A DNA stretch of 64,000 bases from Shigella phage Silverhawkium. Both the position numbers and the translations under genes were made by a program. The stretch is taken from sequence record MK562505; one strand, 5' to 3'. Below are positions 34,725 through 62,792 of the stretch, in pieces. The notes beneath the pieces are model-generated. The model was not told the origin of the DNA and did not search any database. It saw only the letters and a program-made list of their open reading frames with translations. How positions within the stretch are numbered: the stretch's first letter is position 1; every line of letters starts with the position of its first letter.

Positions 34725-34800
34725 TGGAGTATCGGAAGGGACTCGAACCCTCATAAACCTGTTTTGCAGACAGGAACATATCCATTTCTGTCACCGATAC
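34725..34800 (-). tRNA. tRNA-Cys (anticodon GCA)
   Basis: Manual fold: 7-bp acceptor GTATCGG/CCGATAC, anticodon loop CTGCAAA, T-loop TTCGAGT, CCA encoded. Confidence 0.65.
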
Positions 34801-34806
34801 ATAATT

Positions 34807-34899
34807 TGGAGGAAGATACCAGACTTGAACTGGTACGCCGATTTCTCGGTTACTGGCAGTTTAGCAAACTGCTCCCTTACCTGTTAGGGTTAATCTTCC
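34807..34899 (-). tRNA. tRNA-Ser (anticodon GCT), long variable arm
   Basis: Acceptor GGAAGAT/ATCTTCC, anticodon loop TTGCTAA, long variable arm, T-loop TTCAAGT. Confidence 0.65.
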
Positions 34900-34901
34900 A
34901 G

Positions 34902-35699
34902 TTATTTGTTAAGTGCATCTTTCATTTCTGGTGTAGAGATAGAGTCAATAACACCAGTCTTACAAGCATCATCAAACCAGTCTGGTAAGACATTTGCAAG
35001 AAAACCGTTAATGTTTGTCTTAAGATACTCAGCCATCAATGCTACTTCATCAGCAATCATCTGTGTGACTTCTGAAGCGTATGCAGTAATCTTTGACATA
35101 CCTTCATTAATCGCTGTAACAGCTTGTGAGGCTAAATCTTCGATTGTATCAAGCCCTTGGTCAATTGCATCTTGTAAGTCGCTTAGAACGCCGTTTACAG
35201 CGTCTATGGAGGTGTTTATAATCTCCATAGCTTTGTTACCATACTCAGTAGCAACTCCCATAATCCCACTGAATGGCGTACAACCAACTTGTTCACCTGC
35301 TGCTCCCATTACATTAGAGTAGCCTTTTGCCACCTGCATTCGTTGAGAGAACTCATCTACAGATTTCTGACCATACTCAGTCAGTGTAGTGGTTGTTGAA
35401 GTTGTACTGCCAAGACTTGTTGTGAAGCTACTTAAGAGTGCTGCTGTTAATCCAGCCGCAATAAGCTTATCTTGCACAGTCGGGTCTGTTACGGAACTAA
35501 TAGAGTTTACTAATGACTGAGAGGCAGCAATTGTACCACCAAGGACTGCTGCACCAGTAATAAGAGGGTTTGAGAAACCATTACCAGTTTTAAGGAGATT
35601 AAAAATCTCTTTACTTTGTTCTGTCATCTCTTTCATTATGCACCTATAAAGTTGGTAGCCCATCGGGATTTGAACCCTGTTCTCATGTTTTTCAGACAA
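34902..35699 (-). CDS. hypothetical Ala/Ser/Thr-rich protein embedded in tRNA island (265 aa)
   Basis: Long ORF between tRNA genes; low-complexity A/S/T-rich N-terminal half. Confidence 0.4.
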   Translation of the reverse strand: MSEKHENRVQIPMGYQLYRCIMKEMTEQSKEIFNLLKTGNGFSNPLITGAAVLGGTIAASQSLVNSISSVTDPTVQDKLIAAGLTAALLSSFTTSLGSTTSTTTTLTEYGQKSVDEFSQRMQVAKGYSNVMGAAGEQVGCTPFSGIMGVATEYGNKAMEIINTSIDAVNGVLSDLQDAIDQGLDTIEDLASQAVTAINEGMSKITAYASEVTQMIADEVALMAEYLKTNINGFLANVLPDWFDDACKTGVIDSISTPEMKDALNK

Positions 35700-35729
35700 G
35701 CGCTTTAACCATATAAGCTAATTGAGCTA
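35655..35729 (-). tRNA. probable tRNA, isotype uncertain (possibly Phe, anticodon GAA)
   Basis: T-loop TTCAAAT with 3-bp GGG/CCC stem, D-loop ATATGGTTA, loop CTGAAAA; acceptor register ambiguous. Confidence 0.35.
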
Positions 35730-35735
35730 TTAAAT

Positions 35736-35812
35736 TGGGGTGACCTACGGGAATCGAACCCGTATAGACCATGTTCACAGCATGGGTCATTATCCATTTA
35801 TGATAAGGCCAC
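35736..35812 (-). tRNA. tRNA-His (anticodon GTG)
   Basis: Acceptor GTGGCCT/AGGTCAC, anticodon loop CTGTGAA, T-arm ACGGG-TTCGATT-CCCGT, CCA encoded. Confidence 0.7.
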
Positions 35813-35843
35813 ATTTAAGGACTCTCGTAAGAACCCTTAGAAG

Positions 35844-35919
35844 TGGCAGCAGTATAAGGATTTGAACCTTAATCTTTCAGCTTCAGAGGCTGGAGCATTG
35901 CCAGTTATGCTATACTGCT
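35844..35919 (-). tRNA. tRNA-Gln (anticodon CTG)
   Basis: Acceptor AGCAGTA/TACTGCT, D-arm GCAT/ATGC, anticodon loop CTCTGAA. Confidence 0.65.
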
Positions 35920-35925
35920 AATATT

Positions 35926-36004
35926 TGGTACTCCATATCGGATTCGAACCGATACATAACACAGATTTTAAATCTGGCCTCTCTGCCAATTGGAGTAATG
36001 GAGC
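35926..36004 (-). tRNA. tRNA with Leu-type anticodon TAA but short variable arm
   Basis: Acceptor pairs, A14/G18G19/A21 D-loop, anticodon stem CAGA/TCTG with loop TTTAAAA, T-arm ATCGG-TTCGAAT-CCGAT, A73. Confidence 0.5.
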
Positions 36005-36006
36005 CT

Positions 36007-36082
36007 TGGCGGGGGATGATGGAATTGAACCATCTTCTTCGATTTCAAAGACCGAGGTTTTAACCTTGTAAACTAATCCCCT
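36007..36082 (-). tRNA. tRNA-Gln (anticodon TTG)
   Basis: D-arm GTTT/AAAC, anticodon loop CTTTGAA, T-arm GATGG-TTCAATT-CCATC; A1-C72 mismatch. Confidence 0.65.
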
Positions 36083-36090
36083 ATTAAATT

Positions 36091-36167
36091 TGGTGCAGAA
36101 TAGAGGATTCGAACCCCTAACAAACAACTTCGTAGATTGCTGTTCTATCCATTTGAACTAATTCTGC
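36091..36167 (-). tRNA. tRNA-Arg (anticodon ACG)
   Basis: Acceptor GCAGAAT/ATTCTGC perfect, D-arm GTTC/GAAC, anticodon loop CTACGAA. Confidence 0.7.
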
Positions 36168-36168
36168 A

Positions 36169-36411
36169 TTATCCGATAAGGACACCATAAAGTTTTAACT
36201 CTTCATTAGTGTCTCTTCTGCTTAAGACTGACTCTCTAAAATCTTTAGCAATATTCTTTCGAGATTCCTGTCTAGCTCTCTTCTTATCTCTTCTGAGAAA
36301 GCGTTTACGATGGTCTGTACGCCATTTGTAATAATCTTCTTCACCATCATGTGCTGCACAGCAGCCACAACTTGCAATTTCAACTTTACCGTGTCTACCA
36401 TAAGGTTTCAT
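36169..36411 (-). CDS. small basic Cys-cluster protein (80 aa) embedded in tRNA island
   Basis: ORF with SCGCCAAHD cysteine cluster and Arg/Lys-rich C-terminus; abuts tRNA-Arg. Confidence 0.35.
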   Translation of the reverse strand: MKPYGRHGKVEIASCGCCAAHDGEEDYYKWRTDHRKRFLRRDKKRARQESRKNIAKDFRESVLSRRDTNEELKLYGVLIG

Positions 36412-36427
36412 AGGAATCTCCTAAAAT

Positions 36428-36505
36428 TGGTACTCCAAGACGGATTCGAACCGTCACTAATACAAGGTTTGAGCTTGCATCCTCTACCAATTGGGATACT
36501 GGAGC
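36428..36505 (-). tRNA. tRNA with Leu-type anticodon CAA but short variable arm
   Basis: Anticodon stem GCAAG/CTTGT with loop CTCAAAC, T-arm GACGG-TTCGAAT-CCGTC, A73, CCA encoded. Confidence 0.5.
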
Positions 36506-36506
36506 A

Positions 36507-36581
36507 TGGTACTCGCTGAAGAACTTGAATCTTCTTCACCAACTTGTAAGGATGGGGTTTTACCGTATAAACTAAGCGAGC
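36507..36581 (-). tRNA. tRNA-Val (anticodon TAC)
   Basis: Acceptor GCTCGCT/AGCGAGT, D-arm GTTT/AAAC, loop CTTACAA, T-arm GAAGA-TTCAAGT-TCTTC. Confidence 0.6.
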
Positions 36582-36676
36582 TTTGAAGAGGTCTGAAGCT
36601 GTGCCGCTAACTCAACTCCGTGGAATTTGTTACGGTCTTCAGTTGACTCAAGCGGTCTTTCACTTGACCTCAAAAT

Positions 36677-36752
36677 TGGTGCTCCCACAAGGATTCGAAC
36701 CCTGATAAGTTGCTTACAAGGCAACCGTAATAGCCAATTATACGATAAGAGC
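36677..36752 (-). tRNA. tRNA-Thr (anticodon TGT)
   Basis: Anticodon arm GTTGC-CTTGTAA-GCAAC perfect; T-loop TTCGAAT. Confidence 0.7.
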
Positions 36753-36758
36753 ATTATT

Positions 36759-36833
36759 TGGAGCATCCAGAGGGAATCGAACCCTCAACCTCAGTTTGGA
36801 AGACTGTAATTTTCCCGTTTAAACTATGGATGC
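36759..36833 (-). tRNA. tRNA-Gly (anticodon TCC)
   Basis: Acceptor GCATCCA/TGGATGC perfect, loop CTTCCAA, T-arm GAGGG-TTCGATT-CCCTC. Confidence 0.7.
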
Positions 36834-36839
36834 ACTAAT

Positions 36840-36914
36840 TGGTGGAGTCACCGAGAATTGAACTCGGTTCCCAAGTTTGCAAAACTCGAATTTTAACCAT
36901 ATAAACTATGACCC
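36840..36914 (-). tRNA. tRNA-Ala (anticodon TGC)
   Basis: G3-U70 wobble pair in acceptor stem (Ala identity element), loop TTTGCAA, T-arm CCGAG-TTCAATT-CTCGG. Confidence 0.7.
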
Positions 36915-36921
36915 CATTGTT

Positions 36922-36997
36922 TGGTACAGGTGGAGGGAATTGAACCCATCGTCTTACTGATTAAGAGTCAGCCGCATAACCATTTTGCTACACCTGC
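36922..36997 (-). tRNA. tRNA-Lys (anticodon CTT)
   Basis: Acceptor GCAGGTG/CACCTGT, loop CTCTTAA; T-stem only 3 GC pairs. Confidence 0.55.
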
Positions 36998-37004
36998 ATT
37001 AATT

Positions 37005-37081
37005 TGGTACACCTAGAGAGATTCGAACTCACACTGAGCAGATTCTAAGTCTGCTGCCTCTTCCAATTGGGCTATAGGTGC
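37005..37081 (-). tRNA. tRNA with Leu-type anticodon TAG but short variable arm
   Basis: Anticodon arm GCAGA-CTTAGAA-TCTGC perfect, 5-nt variable loop, T-loop TTCGAAT, A73. Confidence 0.5.
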
Positions 37082-37331
37082 ATTAAATCTTTGTAGAGAA
37101 CTGCTAAGACGCCAAAGCAACAATGGTATCAAATGCCTTAACAATTCTCTAAAAAGACCTATTGGCCTTTGCATAGTCTTGCTTAATCCGGTGACTAGAA
37201 CCTTTGGAGAGCTTGATACTATCTCTTCTCCGTGACACCTACTAGGTGCTTTCTCAACATCGTGTACGCCAATACACGGAGGGAAACCTAACGCAACATT
37301 CGAACGGAGCGCGGCTTTAAATCTTATTAGG

Positions 37332-37419
37332 CGGTAAGTAAAGGAGTCGAACCCTCACCGTATCTCTACAGTGGCAACTGTTTTCAAGACAGTTTGGCTA
37401 CCATTAGCCGCTACCTACC
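37332..37419 (-). tRNA. tRNA-Ser (anticodon TGA), long variable arm, CCA not encoded
   Basis: Anticodon arm ACTGT-CTTGAAA-ACAGT perfect, about 20-nt variable arm, T-loop TTCGACT. Confidence 0.65.
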
Positions 37420-37432
37420 CCTAATAAGACTT

Positions 37433-37515
37433 TGGCATGGGACGTAGGATTCGAACCCATTTGAAACGGTTTTGGAGGCCGTCGCACATGCCTTAGTGTC
37501 TTAACATCGTCCCAT
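37433..37515 (-). tRNA. probable tRNA-Trp (anticodon CCA) with atypical extra nucleotides 5' of the D-arm
   Basis: Perfect 7-bp acceptor ATGGGAC/GTCCCAT, anticodon loop CTCCAAA, T-loop TTCGAAT; 83 nt. Confidence 0.4.
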
Positions 37516-37680
37516 ACTATATTTCGAAGCTTACCCTGTTATCTCAACACTGTCAAGCTTCTTCTCAGATTATTTACATGTTCTGGAAAACATGAGATAC
37601 AGACCACCTCCTTATGAGATTGACTCTTTCAAGTCAATGCGGAGACCCATAAAGGTCGTCGTAGTAATCTGCTAACTATT

Positions 37681-37756
37681 TGGCACTCCGTATAGGACTC
37701 GAACCTATATATGAACTGTTTAGAAGACAGTTGCCTATCCTTTAGACTAACGGAGC
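37681..37756 (-). tRNA. tRNA-Arg (anticodon TCT)
   Basis: Anticodon arm ACTGT-CTTCTAA-ACAGT perfect; T-arm ATAGG-TTCGAGT-CCTAT perfect. Confidence 0.7.
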
Positions 37757-38003
37757 ATTATCTTTAAAGGCTCTCTTAGAAAACCCTTAAAGATGCCCAC
37801 TTTATTAATCATACCGTGGGCTAGTACGCCAAATTCTTTAACAGGGAGTTGGAATACCCTGCTGGTGTTTAGCCTATTAAGCTACTGCCAGAAAAACATT
37901 ATCGTTTGCATTTATTTTTAAGTTTTTAAAATAGACGCTACGCTAACGAAAACTAAGGTTATCTTAAAGTGGTCACATCTGAATGTCAACAACTTTATGA
38001 AAT

Positions 38004-38078
38004 TGGTTGTAGGTGAGGGTATCGAACCCTCTTCTAACGGTTATCAGCCGTTTGCATTACCATTTATGCTAACCCACA
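38004..38078 (-). tRNA. tRNA-Ile (anticodon GAT)
   Basis: D-arm GCAT/ATGC, anticodon arm AACGG-CTGATAA-CCGTT, T-arm GAGGG-TTCGATA-CCCTC. Confidence 0.7.
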
Positions 38079-38080
38079 AT

Positions 38081-38157
38081 TGGAGGTTCAGGTGGGAATC
38101 GAACCCACATTCATAGGGCTTATGAAACCCTTGCATTACCTTATCTGCGACTGAACC
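38081..38157 (-). tRNA. tRNA-Met (anticodon CAT)
   Basis: Acceptor GGTTCAG/CTGAACC perfect, loop TTCATAA with G-C-rich anticodon stem. Confidence 0.65.
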
Positions 38158-38161
38158 ATAT

Positions 38162-38237
38162 TGGTAGAAGTGGAGGGATTCGAACCCGTCGCCTGTCAGA
38201 TTAAAAGTCTGCCGCATCACCATTCTGCTACACTTCC
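38162..38237 (-). tRNA. tRNA-Lys (anticodon TTT)
   Basis: Loop CTTTTAA, T-loop TTCGAAT with 3-bp GGG/CCC stem as in tRNA-Lys(CTT). Confidence 0.6.
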
Positions 38238-38424
38238 ATTAAATCATCTTTGCAGTAACCTACGCAAACCTTGCTAAAGGGTTTGTAGAGTCATCTCTTA
38301 GTAAGCTAATCTAGAATCATGCTCAAGAGACTCTTCGGCACTCATGGGACGACTGGTTAGCTCCATAAGTCACTGCAAAGGTGATTACCAGACCGTTGTT
38401 ATCTTAAGTGCTTCCATTACACCA

Positions 38425-38525
38425 ACACGCCGTAACGTGTGAAGGAATCGAACCTTCGCCTTTTCTTTACCAGAGAAATAGATTGTTTAACTTGCTGTAA
38501 ACGGTCTTCTGTAAATTGTTGGAAC
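38425..38525 (-). ncRNA. orphan tRNA-like element (T-arm only) of unknown function
   Basis: Perfect T-arm GAAGG-TTCGATT-CCTTC at 38441-38457 but no matching acceptor, D or anticodon arms; overlaps repeated 24-nt motif. Confidence 0.3.
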
Positions 38526-38659
38526 CAGACCAAGTTTTAAATTTTTCAAAATTAAATTGGCTTGAAATTTTAAGTGACTTGCTGTATTTGGTCTTCTGCT
38601 CCTTTAAAGAATACTCGCAAGAACTCTTTAAGGGAGGGGCTAAATAGCCCTCTCAAAAT

Positions 38660-38736
38660 TGGCGGCTACGATGAGACTTGAACTCACATCATCTCCCGTG
38701 ACAGGGGAGTATTTTCTCCAGTTAAACTACATAGCC
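38660..38736 (-). tRNA. tRNA-Asp (anticodon GTC)
   Basis: Anticodon arm CTCCC-CTGTCAC-GGGAG perfect; T-loop TTCAAGT. Confidence 0.7.
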
Positions 38737-38741
38737 TTTAT

Positions 38742-38829
38742 TGGTGTGCCGTGTAGGAGTCGAACCTACCGAGTCTCAATGACAAGGGATTTACAGTCCC
38801 CACCGCTACCATCTACGGGATAACGACAC
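38742..38829 (-). tRNA. tRNA-Tyr (anticodon GTA), long variable arm
   Basis: 3-bp D-stem, loop CTGTAAA, long variable arm, T-arm GTAGG-TTCGACT-CCTAC. Confidence 0.65.
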
Positions 38830-38838
38830 ATTTAAATT

Positions 38839-38915
38839 TGGCGGTTAGTCAGGGATTCGAACCCTGTACCATTCGGTTAACAGCCGACCGCACATGCCTT
38901 ATGTGCTTCCTAACC
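38839..38915 (-). tRNA. tRNA-Asn (anticodon GTT)
   Basis: D-arm GCAC-ATAAGGCAT-GTGC, loop CTGTTAA, T-arm CAGGG-TTCGAAT-CCCTG. Confidence 0.65.
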
Positions 38916-38998
38916 ATGTTAGTATTACCAGACCGTATCTTTTCATTTTTTCCGATAAAAAATTTTAAGTGTTTGCTGTAAACGGCCTTCTGTAAATT

Positions 38999-39074
38999 TG
39001 GAGGCGGGTGTAGGAGTCGAACCTACCGATACCATGCTAATGAGACATGTGAGACGCCCTTTCTCTATACCCGC
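38999..39074 (-). tRNA. tRNA-Met or Ile2 (anticodon CAT), second copy, with 1:72 mismatch
   Basis: Anticodon arm CATGT-CTCATTA-GCATG; T1-C72 mismatch reminiscent of initiator-type acceptor end. Confidence 0.5.
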
Positions 39075-39162
39075 AATTCTTAATGACCAGACCAAATCTT
39101 TTTTGGATTTCTATGCGCGAAATTGAAAAGTTTGTTTGCTGTAATTGGTCTTCTGTCAAAAC

Positions 39163-39240
39163 TGGCATTCCCGAAGGGACTTGAACCCTCAAACCACACC
39201 TTGAAAGGGTGTTGACTTTACCTAATTTGTCTACGGGAAT
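39163..39240 (-). tRNA. tRNA-Glu (anticodon TTC)
   Basis: Acceptor ATTCCCG/CGGGAAT perfect, anticodon arm ACACC-CTTTCAA-GGTGT perfect. Confidence 0.7.
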
Positions 39241-39246
39241 ATAATT

Positions 39247-39326
39247 TGGTCTCCGTTGAAGGATTTGAACCTTCGACCCCTTGCTCCCAAAGCAAGTGCT
39301 GCTAAACCAAACTGAGCTAAACGGAG
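39247..39326 (-). tRNA. tRNA-Pro (anticodon TGG)
   Basis: Acceptor CTCCGTT/AACGGAG perfect, anticodon arm CTTGC-TTTGGGA-GCAAG, T-arm GAAGG-TTCAAAT-CCTTC. Confidence 0.7.
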
Positions 39327-57610: not shown

Positions 57611-57994
57611 TTAGTTAATTTCAAAGATTGTTACATATCCATCACTACCAACAACCTGAGATACTCCAGCTTTTACCACGTTATAACCCATGTTGTCAAG
57701 ATGATAAACTGCATCTTCATAGCCATATTTGCAACCTTGATAACGGCGCTTGTCGCAACGAATTATGGTCTTCCCACGTCCTGCCAGTGCATGGATAATA
57801 GCTTTTTCTCCTGAGAGTGTACCATCTAACATTGTAGCGGTATAGTGATTTATTTTGTTGCCATTCACATCATACTTAAAATTGTATGCGTGGACAACAA
57901 TTATTTTGCCTTTTAAGTTTTCACTCATAGATTTTTCTAGTGCATCACGAAAGTTTTCTTTGTTGATGAATTTAGGCATATAATATTTTTTCAT
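57611..57994 (-). CDS. hypothetical protein (127 aa)
   Basis: ORF preceded by conserved cassette and promoter. Confidence 0.45.
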   Translation of the reverse strand: MKKYYMPKFINKENFRDALEKSMSENLKGKIIVVHAYNFKYDVNGNKINHYTATMLDGTLSGEKAIIHALAGRGKTIIRCDKRRYQGCKYGYEDAVYHLDNMGYNVVKAGVSQVVGSDGYVTIFEIN

Positions 57995-58043
57995 TTTAGA
58001 TTCTCCAGTTTAGGATAGTTGGGAGTTGTTCCCGTTGATGCAA

Positions 58044-58071
58044 ATACTATAAAACCAGATTCATACAGTCA
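58044..58071 (-). promoter_or_regulatory. sigma70-like promoter (TTGACT-16-TAGTAT)
   Basis: Read on minus strand upstream of cassette and gene 57611..57994. Confidence 0.45.
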
Positions 58072-58246
58072 AGAAATTTTTTAAAAATATTTTTGGCATG
58101 TTGTGAATGAAACGGGTGCGTACACGTAGCACTAAACAGAAAACTGGTCAAGAATTATTTTTCAATCCGCTACAAATTTTTCTCTTGACTTTTGGGAGGA
58201 AGGGGAGTAAGAGGGGATGGTGGGGCTGGCTACCTATTGCGCTCTA

Positions 58247-58430
58247 CCTGCACAAATTGAAAATAAATTTCCTTGCCCGACCTTGGCGGGGTCTGCACGT
58301 TTTGAAAATGAAAAAACTCTTTGGAGTTGACCTGCACAATTCTAAAATGAATTTTCCCTTTGGAGATTGTGGAGATGTGTCTACAGATTTATGTGTAGCT
58401 TTTTATCTGCACGTTTTAGAAATAAAAAAG
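58247..58430. repeat. four direct repeats of about 24 bp, YCTGCAC(A/G)WTT..AAAAT(R)AA
   Basis: Copies start near 58247, 58292, 58331, 58406; ORF-track ORF 58107..58460 is probably an artefact of these repeats. Confidence 0.6.
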
Positions 58431-58460
58431 CCCTCCTTACCTCATTTTTTAAAATGGTAA
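58405..58460 (-). terminator. probable rho-independent terminator downstream of macro-domain gene
   Basis: Imperfect hairpin AAGCCTTCTTTACC...GGTAAGGAGGGCTT followed by TTTTTTATTT on minus strand. Confidence 0.4.
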
Positions 58461-58496
58461 AGAAGGCTTTATACACTGTCCACTTATGGACGAGAG

Positions 58497-59291
58497 TTAG
58501 TTACGTGCTTCAACAAAGGTAATACTCTTATCTGTGATAATTACATCAACTTCTTCATGGTTATCTGCAAGAATGTATACGCTTGCATCTACACCAAATG
58601 TGATAGCTCTGCAAGAATGTCCCTGTAACCTGTGGGTAACTTGAGCGTTACTCTTAGAGTACTCCTCAACCGGAGGGTTACTTTTATGTACCTTACCTTT
58701 GCGTTTCACCCGAAGGGTAACTTGCTCATTGTCTAATAGTGCAACACCATCGAAGAATTGTGGTTCGCTGTAGTTCTTCCAACCCTTAACCGGACTAGTC
58801 AACTGACTATACATCTTATCTTCATAGATATACATGTACACATCAACGTCCTTCATTGTCTGGTTAATGATTGACAGCACAGCCATTCCATCAAGACCAC
58901 CAATCCCTGCACCAAGCATTGGCAAGCCAACCTTCTTAAGTTGGTTAACTTTACAGTAATTGTTCAGACGCTGCAAAGCTTCTTCTAAAGCATTGTAACG
59001 TGCATCTTTACCAGTGATAACCTGAGTGTAAAGGTTTGCAATTCGACCTTGTTTTAATCGAGCTACAGAGATATTCCCAAGCATAATGTGCATTGGTTTA
59101 TGGTCTTCTCCACCAACAACTCCATAAACTTCTGAATCAGTTTCATAAGCTTTTGGATATCGTTTAGAAATGGTTGCTGCAATACCTGCACCCATCAGAT
59201 TCATACAGTTACATCCGTGACCAATGATATCAAACTTCTTGTTATCAAAAGCTTCAAAGATATCACCTTTAATGATTTTCACGATACCCAT
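58497..59291 (-). CDS. macro-domain protein (TARG1/OARD1-like ADP-ribose-binding fold) with C-terminal extension
   Basis: N-terminal KGDIFEAF...DIIGHGCNCMNLMGAGIAATI resembles macro-domain signature; 264 aa. Confidence 0.55.
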   Translation of the reverse strand: MGIVKIIKGDIFEAFDNKKFDIIGHGCNCMNLMGAGIAATISKRYPKAYETDSEVYGVVGGEDHKPMHIMLGNISVARLKQGRIANLYTQVITGKDARYNALEEALQRLNNYCKVNQLKKVGLPMLGAGIGGLDGMAVLSIINQTMKDVDVYMYIYEDKMYSQLTSPVKGWKNYSEPQFFDGVALLDNEQVTLRVKRKGKVHKSNPPVEEYSKSNAQVTHRLQGHSCRAITFGVDASVYILADNHEEVDVIITDKSITFVEARN

Positions 59292-62181: not shown

Positions 62182-62731
62182 ATTTTACCTTTTTAATGTT
62201 GGTTGCAAACTCACATTGAGCAAGCAGTTGCATGTTATTGTACACATCCTGAGAATATTGTCTAGCTTTTGGAATCTTATATCTGTAACCAGCATTATAA
62301 GAGGCTAGGACACGCTTCATAGAGTACTTTCCATTTGGGTGACCATGTACCTTAGTCCAGAAGAGAAGTTCCTTATGAGCCTCTTTAGCTGAGTAATGGA
62401 AATCTCTTACAAGCTTTCTCTTTGCAGTATTCGGTGAAATTTTGTTACGCTTTACAACAGTCTTCAAATGATTCTGGAATACTCCATAATCGTGAGTCTT
62501 ATTATTAACTACATTGACACCTAATTGTGACTCTTGTAAGGCTATAGCTGCCAGTGGGATTCCCCAACCTTGTCCCATCTCTTTCTCGCCATAATTGTAA
62601 GCCTTTAACATATTAACCTTTTGACTAATTGTTAGCTCTGGACAATCTGACGCTGTAGCAACCTGTGCTGTGAATAATAAGCACAAACCTAAAATGAATT
62701 TCTTCATTGGGTCTCCTATTTTGTTAAACAT
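62159..62731 (-). CDS. secreted lytic transglycosylase-like protein
   Basis: Signal peptide MKKFILGLCLLFTAQVATA; SLT-like catalytic region AAIALQESQLG...DYGVFQ. Confidence 0.5.
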   Translation of the reverse strand: MFNKIGDPMKKFILGLCLLFTAQVATASDCPELTISQKVNMLKAYNYGEKEMGQGWGIPLAAIALQESQLGVNVVNNKTHDYGVFQNHLKTVVKRNKISPNTAKRKLVRDFHYSAKEAHKELLFWTKVHGHPNGKYSMKRVLASYNAGYRYKIPKARQYSQDVYNNMQLLAQCEFATNIKKVKYERIKTI

Positions 62732-62763
62732 GCAAACAATTATACACCATCATGCACGTTTTT

Positions 62764-62792
62764 CAAATAAAAAAGGCTGCCGAAGCAGCCCT
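62764..62792 (-). terminator. rho-independent terminator
   Basis: Hairpin GGGCTGC-ttcg-GCAGCC followed by TTTTTTATTTG on minus strand. Confidence 0.65.

What the first reader, a model, noticed from the sequence alone, without database searches (positions are those of the whole stretch)
58247..58430. Four direct repeats YCTGCAC(A/G)WTT..AAAAT(R)AA in an intergenic region
Four copies of an about 24-bp element lie within 190 bp between the macro-domain operon and the small-gene array. The ORF-track protein 58107..58460 shows the same periodicity (LYLHKL / LHVLKM / LHNSKM / LHVLEI), so it is most likely a translation artefact of the DNA repeats. The element could be a protein-binding array or a set of phage-specific promoters.
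Basis: seen in the sequence. Interest (0 to 1): 0.45.

Follow-up and report, generated by a model that had tools for sequence, protein, structure and literature searches.

The report
Conserved non-coding repeat array in Felix-O1-like phages
Four copies of a two-part DNA motif sit in a gene-free control region of a Felix-O1-type phage and are kept in every relative examined, so they are a real but uncharacterised functional element (probably docking sites for one protein, possibly also part of a small untranslated RNA), while the "protein" predicted across them is an artefact.

Summary
Four same-strand copies of YCTGCAC-N5-RAAAT(G/A)A-(A/T)5 start at 58248, 58293, 58332 and 58407. A degenerate search finds 5 matches against 0.16 expected.

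The window is an Ounavirinae (Felix O1-like) phage. The 500-bp gene-free region holding the repeats is conserved in 255 phage records, at least as well as the flanking genes. The array also occurs, with the same core and orientation, behind the macro-domain gene of Erwinia Kolesnikviruses (macro protein only 36% identical) and of an uncultured IMG/VR lineage.

The 117-aa ORF is not conserved: relatives read the repeats in other frames. There is no conserved RNA fold and no Rfam family. ToxI antitoxin repeats show no similarity, and the motif is not scattered genome-wide.

Context: the macro-operon terminator fuses with copy 4. Upstream lies an invariant 46-bp block with back-to-back -35 hexamers, one aimed into the array. 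One solitary copy overlaps the gp3-operon promoter.

Best reading (about 0.4): iteron- or operator-like binding sites for one sequence-specific DNA-binding protein, transcribed by the inward promoter. Main rival (about 0.3): modules of a roughly 260-nt untranslated RNA. Function is unproven.

The parts
58247..58271 (+). Repeat copy 1 (type A: CCTGCAC-AAATT-GAAAATAA-ATTTC)
   Evidence: matrix score 30.5. Orthologous copy present in all 17 aligned relatives.
58292..58316 (+). Repeat copy 2 (type B: TCTGCAC-GTTTT-GAAAATGA-AAAAA), followed by the tail CTCTTTGGAG
   Evidence: score 31.3. 13 of 22 core columns are invariant across 17 genomes.
58331..58355 (+). Repeat copy 3 (type A: CCTGCAC-AATTC-TAAAATGA-ATTTT), followed by the tail CCCTTTGGAG
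   Evidence: score 33.1. Deleted in 2 of 17 relatives, L014 and L015.
58406..58430 (+). Repeat copy 4 (type B: TCTGCAC-GTTTTA-GAAATAA-AAAAG). Its A-run is the T-run of the minus-strand terminator.
   Evidence: score 25.5.
58427..58470 (-). Hairpin terminator of the rIIA...macro operon. It is a good intrinsic terminator on the minus strand and a weaker one on the plus strand. The 5' arm GCCCTCCTTACCT is invariant among relatives.
   Evidence: Inverted repeat I5. The equivalent hairpin is called as a terminator in FO1a and the Erwinia phage and is annotated in wV8 and ASO1A. Invariance.
58148..58193 (.). 46-bp block, 40 of about 50 columns invariant, holding two back-to-back -35 hexamers (GGTCAA ... 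TTGACT) 33 bp apart
   Evidence: Alignment of 17 genomes.
58185..58213 (+). Candidate sigma-70 promoter aimed into the array: TTGACT-17 nt-TAAGAG (weak -10). G-13, T-12 and A-11 are invariant in both alleles. Predicted start is near 58220.
   Evidence: Read. It does not pass the simple scan. The Erwinia phage has TTGACG-18-TATACT (10 of 12) at the same place and orientation.
58123..58151 (-). Candidate divergent promoter P2: TTGACC-17 nt-TACGTG with TG at -15/-14
   Evidence: Read. Inference only.
58044..58072 (-). Sigma-70 promoter P1 (TTGACT-17-TAGTAT) for the downstream small-gene array
   Evidence: Annotated as a promoter in ASO1A. Conserved.
58196..58245 (+). Leader between the promoter and copy 1. 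Here it is the G-rich allele with GGGGCTGGCT. Other Felixounaviruses carry an unrelated allele of identical length.
62751..62775 (+). Solitary fifth copy (CATGCACGTTTTTCAAATAAAAAAG) abutting the rIIB terminator. It overlaps the -35 and spacer of the minus-strand promoter of the gp3...macro operon (TTGAAA 62766-62761, 16 nt, TATAAT 62744-62739).
   Evidence: (score 22.0). Conserved with TGCAC intact in Felix- and Moogle-type genomes.
58107..58460 (+). 117-aa ORF: not a gene

Best explanation
The repeats are a conserved non-coding array of three to five units of about 37-45 bp. Each unit carries a bipartite core, YTGCAC, then a 5-nt A/T-rich spacer, then RAAAT(G/A)A, then an A-tract or T-tract. 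I think the units are most likely iteron- or operator-like docking sites for one sequence-specific DNA-binding protein. The protein could be phage-encoded or host-encoded; DnaA is a candidate only in two lineages. The protein would assemble a multi-site complex at the boundary between the conserved rIIA...macro operon and the variable small early genes.

Bound there, and at the solitary site over the gp3-operon promoter, it would do one of two things. It could control or insulate the back-to-back early promoters. Or it could mark a transcription-activated replication origin.

Shown: the array, its conservation, its fixed position and orientation, the surrounding terminator and promoter-like elements, and the absence of coding potential. 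Inferred: protein binding, the identity of the ligand, and the regulatory or origin role. The plus-strand promoter probably transcribes through the sites to the terminator, giving an untranslated RNA of about 260 nt, so a DNA role and an RNA role are not mutually exclusive.
For: 1. Purifying selection acts on the motif rather than on the region as a whole. Core columns have a majority fraction of 0.93-0.94 with 13-15 of 22 invariant, against 0.78-0.85 for the inter-copy spacers. TGCAC and AAATGA are invariant while the 5-nt spacer varies freely among A/T-rich words.
2. The bipartite, non-palindromic, same-orientation layout is that of iterons and operators.
3. The tract after the second half-site is always of AnTn type (AAAAA, ATTTT, TTTTT, AAATTT) and never TnAn. 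This fits DNA shape read-out better than single-stranded RNA recognition.
4. The array is kept in four lineages whose transcription context differs. Felix, Moogle and Susp viruses have a terminator plus an inward promoter. Kolesnikvirus has a strong inward promoter. The IMG/VR lineage has no predicted terminator and no clear inward promoter.
5. The solitary copy lies in the -35/spacer of a sigma-70 promoter, where it would not be in a plus-strand transcript. There TGCAC is conserved although neighbouring bases vary.
6. There is no conserved RNA secondary structure: RNAalifold gives -7.6 kcal/mol with a covariation term of -0.12.
7. Individual units decay independently in close relatives, as expected for redundant sites.
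8. The distance from promoter to terminator is fixed at 259-263 bp, even where the leader has been replaced by an unrelated allele.
Against: No candidate binding protein was identified. Neighbouring genes have no Pfam DNA-binding domains, and the gene downstream of the array is not conserved between lineages. A conserved promoter points into the array and a terminator closes it, which is the anatomy of an RNA gene. Spacings of 37-45 bp put adjacent sites on opposite faces of the helix, unlike classical 22-bp iteron spacing. The DnaA-box match is good only in Kolesnikvirus (7 of 8 specified positions) and poor in the window (5 of 8). The solitary copy is absent from Kolesnikvirus and from the IMG/VR lineage.
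Confidence: 0.4

Rival explanations
1. The repeats are the working modules of an early, untranslated plus-strand RNA of about 260 nt (about 325 nt in Kolesnikvirus), transcribed antisense to all neighbouring genes. The RNA would present 3-5 single-stranded A/U-rich sites (UGCAC...GAAAAUGAAAAA) and act in trans as a sponge or decoy for an RNA-binding protein or endoribonuclease. Candidates are Hfq, S1 or RNase E, or a type III toxin, in which case the RNA would be a pseudo-antitoxin.
For: An inward sigma-70 promoter lies at the same position in distant lineages: TTGACG-18-TATACT in the Erwinia phage, and the invariant TTGACT with -12T/-11A in 17 other genomes. No ORF is available for these promoters to express. 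A hairpin terminator closes the array. Transcript length is constant. In Kolesnikvirus the array is truly tandem, with period 37 nt and 3.8 copies, which is within the 34-45-nt range of type III antitoxin repeats. Enterobacterial toxIN loci have the same promoter-repeats-terminator layout. ToxN enzymes cut A-rich sites such as AA^AU and GAA^AU (PMC8860590). Phage-encoded pseudo-ToxI is a known escape route (PMC3475682).
Against: There is no conserved fold or pseudoknot and no Rfam family, including ToxI, even at E<=10. The weight matrix finds nothing in six enterobacterial ToxI arrays. No similar sequence was found in 5,426 E. coli genomes or 72,556 plasmids. No toxin gene follows the array. 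The plus-strand terminator has a poor U-tail. The -10 in the window is weak and fails the scan. The IMG/VR lineage lacks a clear promoter and terminator. Whole-tract swaps between AAAAA and TTTTT would be drastic for an RNA ligand. The solitary copy is not in a plausible plus-strand transcript.
Confidence: 0.3
2. The array is specifically a replication origin. The iteron-like units, each containing a DnaA-box-like TGCACA and an A/T-rich stretch, would be activated or primed by the inward early transcript, whose G-rich leader is R-loop-prone. The comparison is with phage c2 ori, T4 oriE/oriF and lambda ori. This is a sub-case of the best explanation.
For: The locus is unique in the genome. It combines 3-5 direct repeats, an invariant A/T-rich block and a promoter reading into non-coding DNA. 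The core is YTATGCACR in Kolesnikvirus, matching TTATNCACA at 7 of 8 specified positions. The leaders in the window and in Kolesnikvirus are G-rich.
Against: The G-rich leader is replaced by a non-G-rich allele in several Felixounaviruses. DnaA-box quality is poor in Felix and Moogle types. No initiator gene was found. GC skew shows no switch beyond gene orientation. The site spacing is unlike known iterons.
Confidence: 0.12
3. The copies are phage-specific or tandem sigma-70 promoters.
For: Each unit has a -10-like GAAAAT or TAAAAT. One Kolesnikvirus junction scores as TTGCCA-17-GAAAAT. The solitary copy overlaps a real-looking promoter.
Against: The motif is absent from the rest of the 64-kb window. 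No copy in the window passes the promoter scan. The invariant TGCAC would fall in the spacer. Plus-strand promoters here would express nothing, and minus-strand readings lack a -10.
Confidence: 0.05
4. The copies are decaying duplications of the terminator-proximal segment and have no function, or the region encodes the 117-aa protein.
For: Copies 2 and 4 share AAAAAGCYCT, the start of the terminator stem. An ORF exists in the window.
Against: The core is conserved across lineages whose proteins are only about 36% identical and across 255 records. The ORF is not conserved.
Confidence: 0.05

Closest known systems
Iteron arrays of plasmid and phage origins (lambda ori, P1 oriR, F ori2; T4 oriE; lactococcal phage c2 ori with its untranslated early transcript). 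Recalled from established literature, not tested here.
   Same: There are three to five same-orientation copies of a roughly 20-bp non-palindromic bipartite motif at a single genomic locus. An A/T-rich block lies beside them, and a promoter reads into non-coding DNA.
   Different: Unit spacing is 37-45 bp rather than about 22 bp. No initiator gene was identified, and no origin activity has been shown. The motif is unrelated to known iterons.
Type III toxin-antitoxin RNA antitoxins (ToxI, CptI, TenpI) and the phage 'pseudo-ToxI' decoy (PMC3475682, PMC8860590, PMC12283969)
   Same: The layout is a sigma-70 promoter, then repeats with a period of about 37 nt that have A-rich stretches, then a terminator. 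The repeats are non-identical, as reported for TenpI. The element lies in an early phage region.
   Different: No toxin gene follows. There is no pseudoknot or conserved fold. No similarity was found to enterobacterial ToxI units or to Rfam models. In most genomes the repeats are interspersed rather than tandem.
Protein-sponge sRNAs (CsrB/RsmZ, CrcZ)
   Same: The element would be a short untranslated RNA carrying several copies of one single-stranded motif.
   Different: GGA motifs are present in the Felix and Moogle tails but absent in Kolesnikvirus. There are no hairpin-presented motifs, no Rfam hit, and no experimental evidence that the RNA exists.
DnaA-box clusters (datA, oriC, plasmid origins; consensus TTATNCACA, from established knowledge)
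   Same: The core TGCAC(A/G) equals box positions 4-9. All Kolesnikvirus copies match at 7 of 8 specified positions.
   Different: Copies in the window, in Felix and in Moogle types match only 4-6 of 8. The equally conserved second half-site, RAAATGA, has no counterpart in DnaA boxes.

Membership tests
Protein-coding gene (ORF 58107..58460) | The ORF and its reading frame are conserved in relatives | tested here: not met
   Frames, starts and stops differ among 18 loci, and indels are not multiples of three.
Type III antitoxin / pseudo-antitoxin RNA | Head-to-tail tandem repeats of 34-45 nt between a promoter and a terminator | tested here: inconclusive
   Kolesnikvirus has period 37 and 3.8 copies. 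In the window TRF finds nothing and the spacings are 45, 39 and 75.
Type III antitoxin / pseudo-antitoxin RNA | Cognate toxin gene (ToxN, CptN or TenpN) directly downstream on the same strand; for a mimic, sequence similarity to a host antitoxin | tested here: not met
   The next gene is the convergent macro gene. There are no matrix hits in six enterobacterial ToxI arrays, no Rfam ToxI hit, and no match in E. coli genomes or plasmids. CptI and TenpI sequences could not be obtained.
Type III antitoxin / pseudo-antitoxin RNA | Each repeat folds into a conserved pseudoknot or stem | tested here: not met
   RNAalifold finds no conserved pairing within the units.
Iteron-type replication origin | At least three direct, same-orientation copies of a bipartite motif of about 20 bp at a unique locus | tested here: met
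Iteron-type replication origin | Adjacent initiator gene and demonstrated origin activity | not testable with these tools
   Pfam and PHROGs give no initiator among the neighbours. Origin activity needs an experiment.
DnaA-box cluster | Match to TTATNCACA | tested here: inconclusive
   Kolesnikvirus 7 of 8; IMG/VR lineage 5-7 of 8; window, Felix and Moogle types 4-6 of 8.
Phage-specific or sigma-70 promoter set | The motif recurs upstream of many genes and has -35/-10 geometry | tested here: not met
   There is only one further significant locus in 64 kb, and no promoter call on any copy in the window.
Described RNA family (Rfam 15) | Score at or above the gathering threshold | tested here: not met
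   Only tRNAs pass in the window. The best hits in the region are 13-21 bits against thresholds of 35-211.
Packaging site or terminal repeat | Lies at the physical genome ends | tested here: not met
   The experimentally mapped 608-bp terminal repeats of Felix-like phage UAB_Phi87 lie next to the homologues of wV8 gp054/055 and the terminase (PMC4837284). The array lies between wV8 genes 12 and 14.

The most novel reading that the evidence does not exclude
The array is the active part of an abundant early phage RNA, antisense-oriented and about 260 nt long. The RNA would act as a multi-site decoy for a host RNA-binding protein or a type III-like endoribonuclease toxin. That would make it an RNA-based counter-defence or host-takeover device conserved across the whole subfamily Ounavirinae, including the classical typing phage Felix O1.
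Probability: 0.12. Interest if true: 0.8.

Novelty: new member of a known kind. Interest (0 to 1): 0.42.

Why it matters
Felix O1-like phages are widely used for Salmonella and E. coli typing, biocontrol and therapy. Even so, their origin of replication, their temporal transcription control and any non-coding RNAs are unknown; the Felix O1 genome paper states that temporal regulation is not understood (PMC3185647). This array, with the invariant promoter block next to it, is the most strongly conserved non-coding feature of the early region and is absent from the published repeat lists. It gives a precise, mutable target of about 25 bp in four copies. That target can be used to find either the control protein or origin, or a new phage RNA. 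It also removes spurious 'hypothetical protein' annotations from many GenBank records.

Tried and rejected
1. Coding ORF: rejected.
2. Structured RNA: RNAalifold shows nothing. Single-sequence z-scores are about -3 on both strands and are explained by the terminator; the Erwinia RNA gives z = -0.4.
3. Rfam at gathering threshold and at E<=10: no family.
4. Trans-antisense regulator of the gp3 (SLT-like) mRNA. The window has a 20/21-bp complementarity at 62678-62702, but it is not conserved in wV8 or the Erwinia phage. I therefore take it as chance similarity in a signal-peptide coding sequence.
5. Host counterpart of the repeats: no match in E. coli genomes or plasmids.
   - Pattern scans of 596 Gb of bacterial genomes and of JGI metagenomes returned only unrelated tandem repeats and Lachnospiraceae toxIN loci. 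Those loci share TGCAC-N7-AAATGA only because the pattern demanded it.
6. ToxI mimicry: no similarity to six enterobacterial ToxI arrays.
7. Terminal repeat or pac site: the genome ends lie elsewhere.
8. CsrA sponge: the GGA tails are not conserved in Kolesnikvirus.
9. Sigma-54, NtrC, Fis, IHF, LexA and type I restriction-site readings were compared by eye from memory and did not fit.
10. Association with macro genes in general: 79 other macro-encoding phage loci (419 kb) have no array.
11. A conserved partner gene downstream of the array: none.
12. Literature: no transcriptome of a Felix O1-like phage and no prior description of this array was found.

Full report
**What is there**

The window is a Felix O1-like myovirus of subfamily Ounavirinae. 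Its closest records are Shigella phage ESh22 and Citrobacter phage HP1, at about 83% identity. All genes around the finding lie on the minus strand.

Between the stop of the macro-domain gene (58497-59291; Pfam Macro) and the next gene (57611-57994) lies 502 bp without a conserved ORF. Four same-strand copies of a bipartite motif lie within it. They are confirmed by the repeat finder and by a degenerate search that gives 5 hits against 0.16 expected. A weight matrix scores them 25.5-33.1, against at most 14.9 in shuffles. They are interspersed, with spacings of 45, 39 and 75 bp, and are not detected by Tandem Repeats Finder.

**Conservation**

The intergenic region matches 255 phage records, all Ounavirinae-like, at 72-86% identity. 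That is at least as high as the 1.7-kb stretch including the flanking genes, which is 73-83% identical.

In an alignment of 17 genomes the motif cores are markedly better conserved than the spacers between them. The majority fraction is 0.93-0.94 in the cores against 0.78-0.85 in the spacers.

The consensus unit is YTGCAC, then 5 variable A/T-rich bases, then RAAAT(G/A)A, then an A- or T-tract, then a short tail. Copies 1 and 3 carry a T-tract (type A). Copies 2 and 4 carry an A-tract (type B).

The same array, in the same place and orientation, occurs in two further lineages:
- **Erwinia Kolesnikviruses.** The macro protein is only 36% identical. Here the array is truly tandem, with period 37 and 3.8 copies.
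- **An uncultured 85-88-kb IMG/VR lineage.** It has no DNA match in the phage collection.

Seventy-nine other macro-encoding phage loci lack the array. Pattern scans of bacterial genomes and metagenomes found no true relatives.

**Not a gene**

ORFs across the array differ in frame, start and stop between relatives, and repeat spacings change by 2 nt. GenBank annotators place contradictory ORFs there.

**Surroundings**

- **Terminator.** Copy 4 runs into a hairpin that is a good intrinsic terminator for the minus-strand macro operon.
- **Invariant block.** Left of the array, at 58148-58193, is a 46-bp block that is almost invariant in all 17 genomes. It contains two back-to-back TTGAC hexamers.
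- **Inward promoter.** The right-hand hexamer, TTGACT at 58185-58190, is followed after 17 nt by TAAGAG. The T and A of that hexamer are invariant even in genomes where the surrounding 45 nt have been replaced by an unrelated allele of equal length. This promoter points into the array, against the direction of all neighbouring genes. It fails the simple promoter scan in the window because its last base is G.
- **Erwinia equivalent.** The Erwinia phage has a near-consensus promoter, TTGACG-18-TATACT, at the equivalent place and orientation.
- **Fixed length.** The distance from the -10 element to the end of the terminator is 259-263 nt in every four-copy genome.
- **Downstream promoter.** A further minus-strand promoter, TTGACT-17-TAGTAT at 58072-58044, serves the downstream genes.

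**A fifth copy**

The only other significant matrix hits in 64 kb are at 62751 and 62678.

The hit at 62751 abuts the rIIB terminator. It overlaps the -35 and spacer of the promoter of the gp3...macro operon (TTGAAA-16-TATAAT). It is conserved in Felix- and Moogle-type genomes, with TGCAC intact while neighbouring bases vary. It is absent from Kolesnikvirus.

The hit at 62678 lies in the first codons of gp3, an SLT-domain protein. It is not conserved in wV8. The attractive idea of a trans-antisense target is therefore not supported.

**RNA or DNA?**

For an RNA role:
- an inward promoter with nothing to express;
- a closing terminator;
- a constant length;
- a period of about 37 nt in Kolesnikvirus, like type III antitoxins. 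Enterobacterial toxIN loci do have the same promoter-repeats-terminator plan.

Against an RNA role:
- no conserved fold and no Rfam family;
- no similarity to ToxI units or to any E. coli or plasmid sequence;
- no downstream toxin gene;
- a poor plus-strand U-tail;
- no clear promoter or terminator in the IMG/VR lineage;
- A-tract/T-tract swaps that preserve DNA geometry but not RNA sequence;
- a solitary copy located where only DNA recognition makes sense.

I therefore rank a DNA-level protein-binding array first, at about 0.4. That figure includes a regulatory reading and an origin reading. A multi-site untranslated RNA comes second, at about 0.3. The two are not exclusive.

DnaA is a candidate ligand only in Kolesnikvirus, where every copy matches the box at 7 of 8 specified positions. 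In the window the match is 5 of 8.

**Other readings excluded**

- **Genome ends.** The physical ends of Felix-like phages are elsewhere (PMC4837284).
- **Promoter class.** The motif is not distributed as a promoter class would be.
- **Partner gene.** No partner gene is conserved downstream.
- **Replication switch.** GC skew shows nothing beyond gene orientation.

**Known or new?**

The Felix O1 genome paper lists only exact repeats of 24 bp or more and does not mention this array. It also states that temporal control is not understood (PMC3185647). No transcriptome of these phages was found.

The element is a new, subfamily-wide example of a familiar kind of feature: a repeat array in a phage control region. 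Its ligand and role remain to be determined experimentally.

Noticed in passing
window 58148-58193: A 46-bp block (TCAAGAATTATTTTTCAATCCGCTACAAATTTTTCTCTTGACTTTT) is essentially invariant in 17 genomes that otherwise differ by 15-28%. It contains two back-to-back -35-like hexamers 33 bp apart, suggesting divergent promoters that share an upstream element or a regulator site.
   Followed up: partly
window 58196-58245: The segment between the inward promoter and copy 1 exists as two unrelated alleles of identical length. One is G-rich with GGGGCTGGCT. The other begins TTTATTTCCAGATGTGGTAGCC and has an extended -10. This implies recombination between flanking conserved elements and a spacing constraint.
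   Followed up: partly
window 62751-62775 and 62739-62766: A solitary repeat copy lies next to the rIIB terminator, overlapping the -35 and spacer of the gp3-operon promoter. The gp3...macro operon is therefore bracketed by motif copies in the same orientation.
   Followed up: yes
window 58430-58442: The 5' arm of the macro terminator, GCCCTCCTTACCT, is invariant across genera although the pairing 3' arm differs. On the plus strand it reads CCUCCUUA, identical to the 3' end of 16S rRNA. On the minus strand it reads UAAGGAGG.
   Followed up: no
window 57995-58015; L001 3392-3412 and 3863-3883: A conserved leader and ribosome-binding module (TTTAGATTCTCCAGTTTAGGA on the plus strand) recurs in front of several small early genes. 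It is apparently the module that the wV8 record annotates as direct repeat DR_6.
   Followed up: no
L141 600-760 (IMG/VR contig 3300045988_063805): About twelve phased TGTTAA (TTAACA) repeats lie beside that lineage's array, and an exact Chi sequence GCTGGTGG lies between its units. Neither is present in the window.
   Followed up: no
L034, L050, L065, L066, L103, L115 (bacterial MAG contigs): Long tandem arrays of 21-nt hairpin units of the form YTTGCAC-loop-GTGCAAATGA occur in Prevotellaceae, Eubacteriales and Ignavibacteriales MAGs. They surfaced in the pattern scan and are unrelated to the phage array. Their nature is unknown.
   Followed up: no
L028 6583-7182 and L038 556-1145: Complete toxIN type III toxin-antitoxin loci occur in Lachnospiraceae, with ToxN at Pfam E = 5e-50. 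Their 37-nt antitoxin repeats contain TGCAC-N7-AAATGA. The pattern scan selected them, so the match is not evidence of relatedness.
   Followed up: yes
window 34725-39326: A cluster of 26 tRNA genes lies on the minus strand.
   Followed up: no
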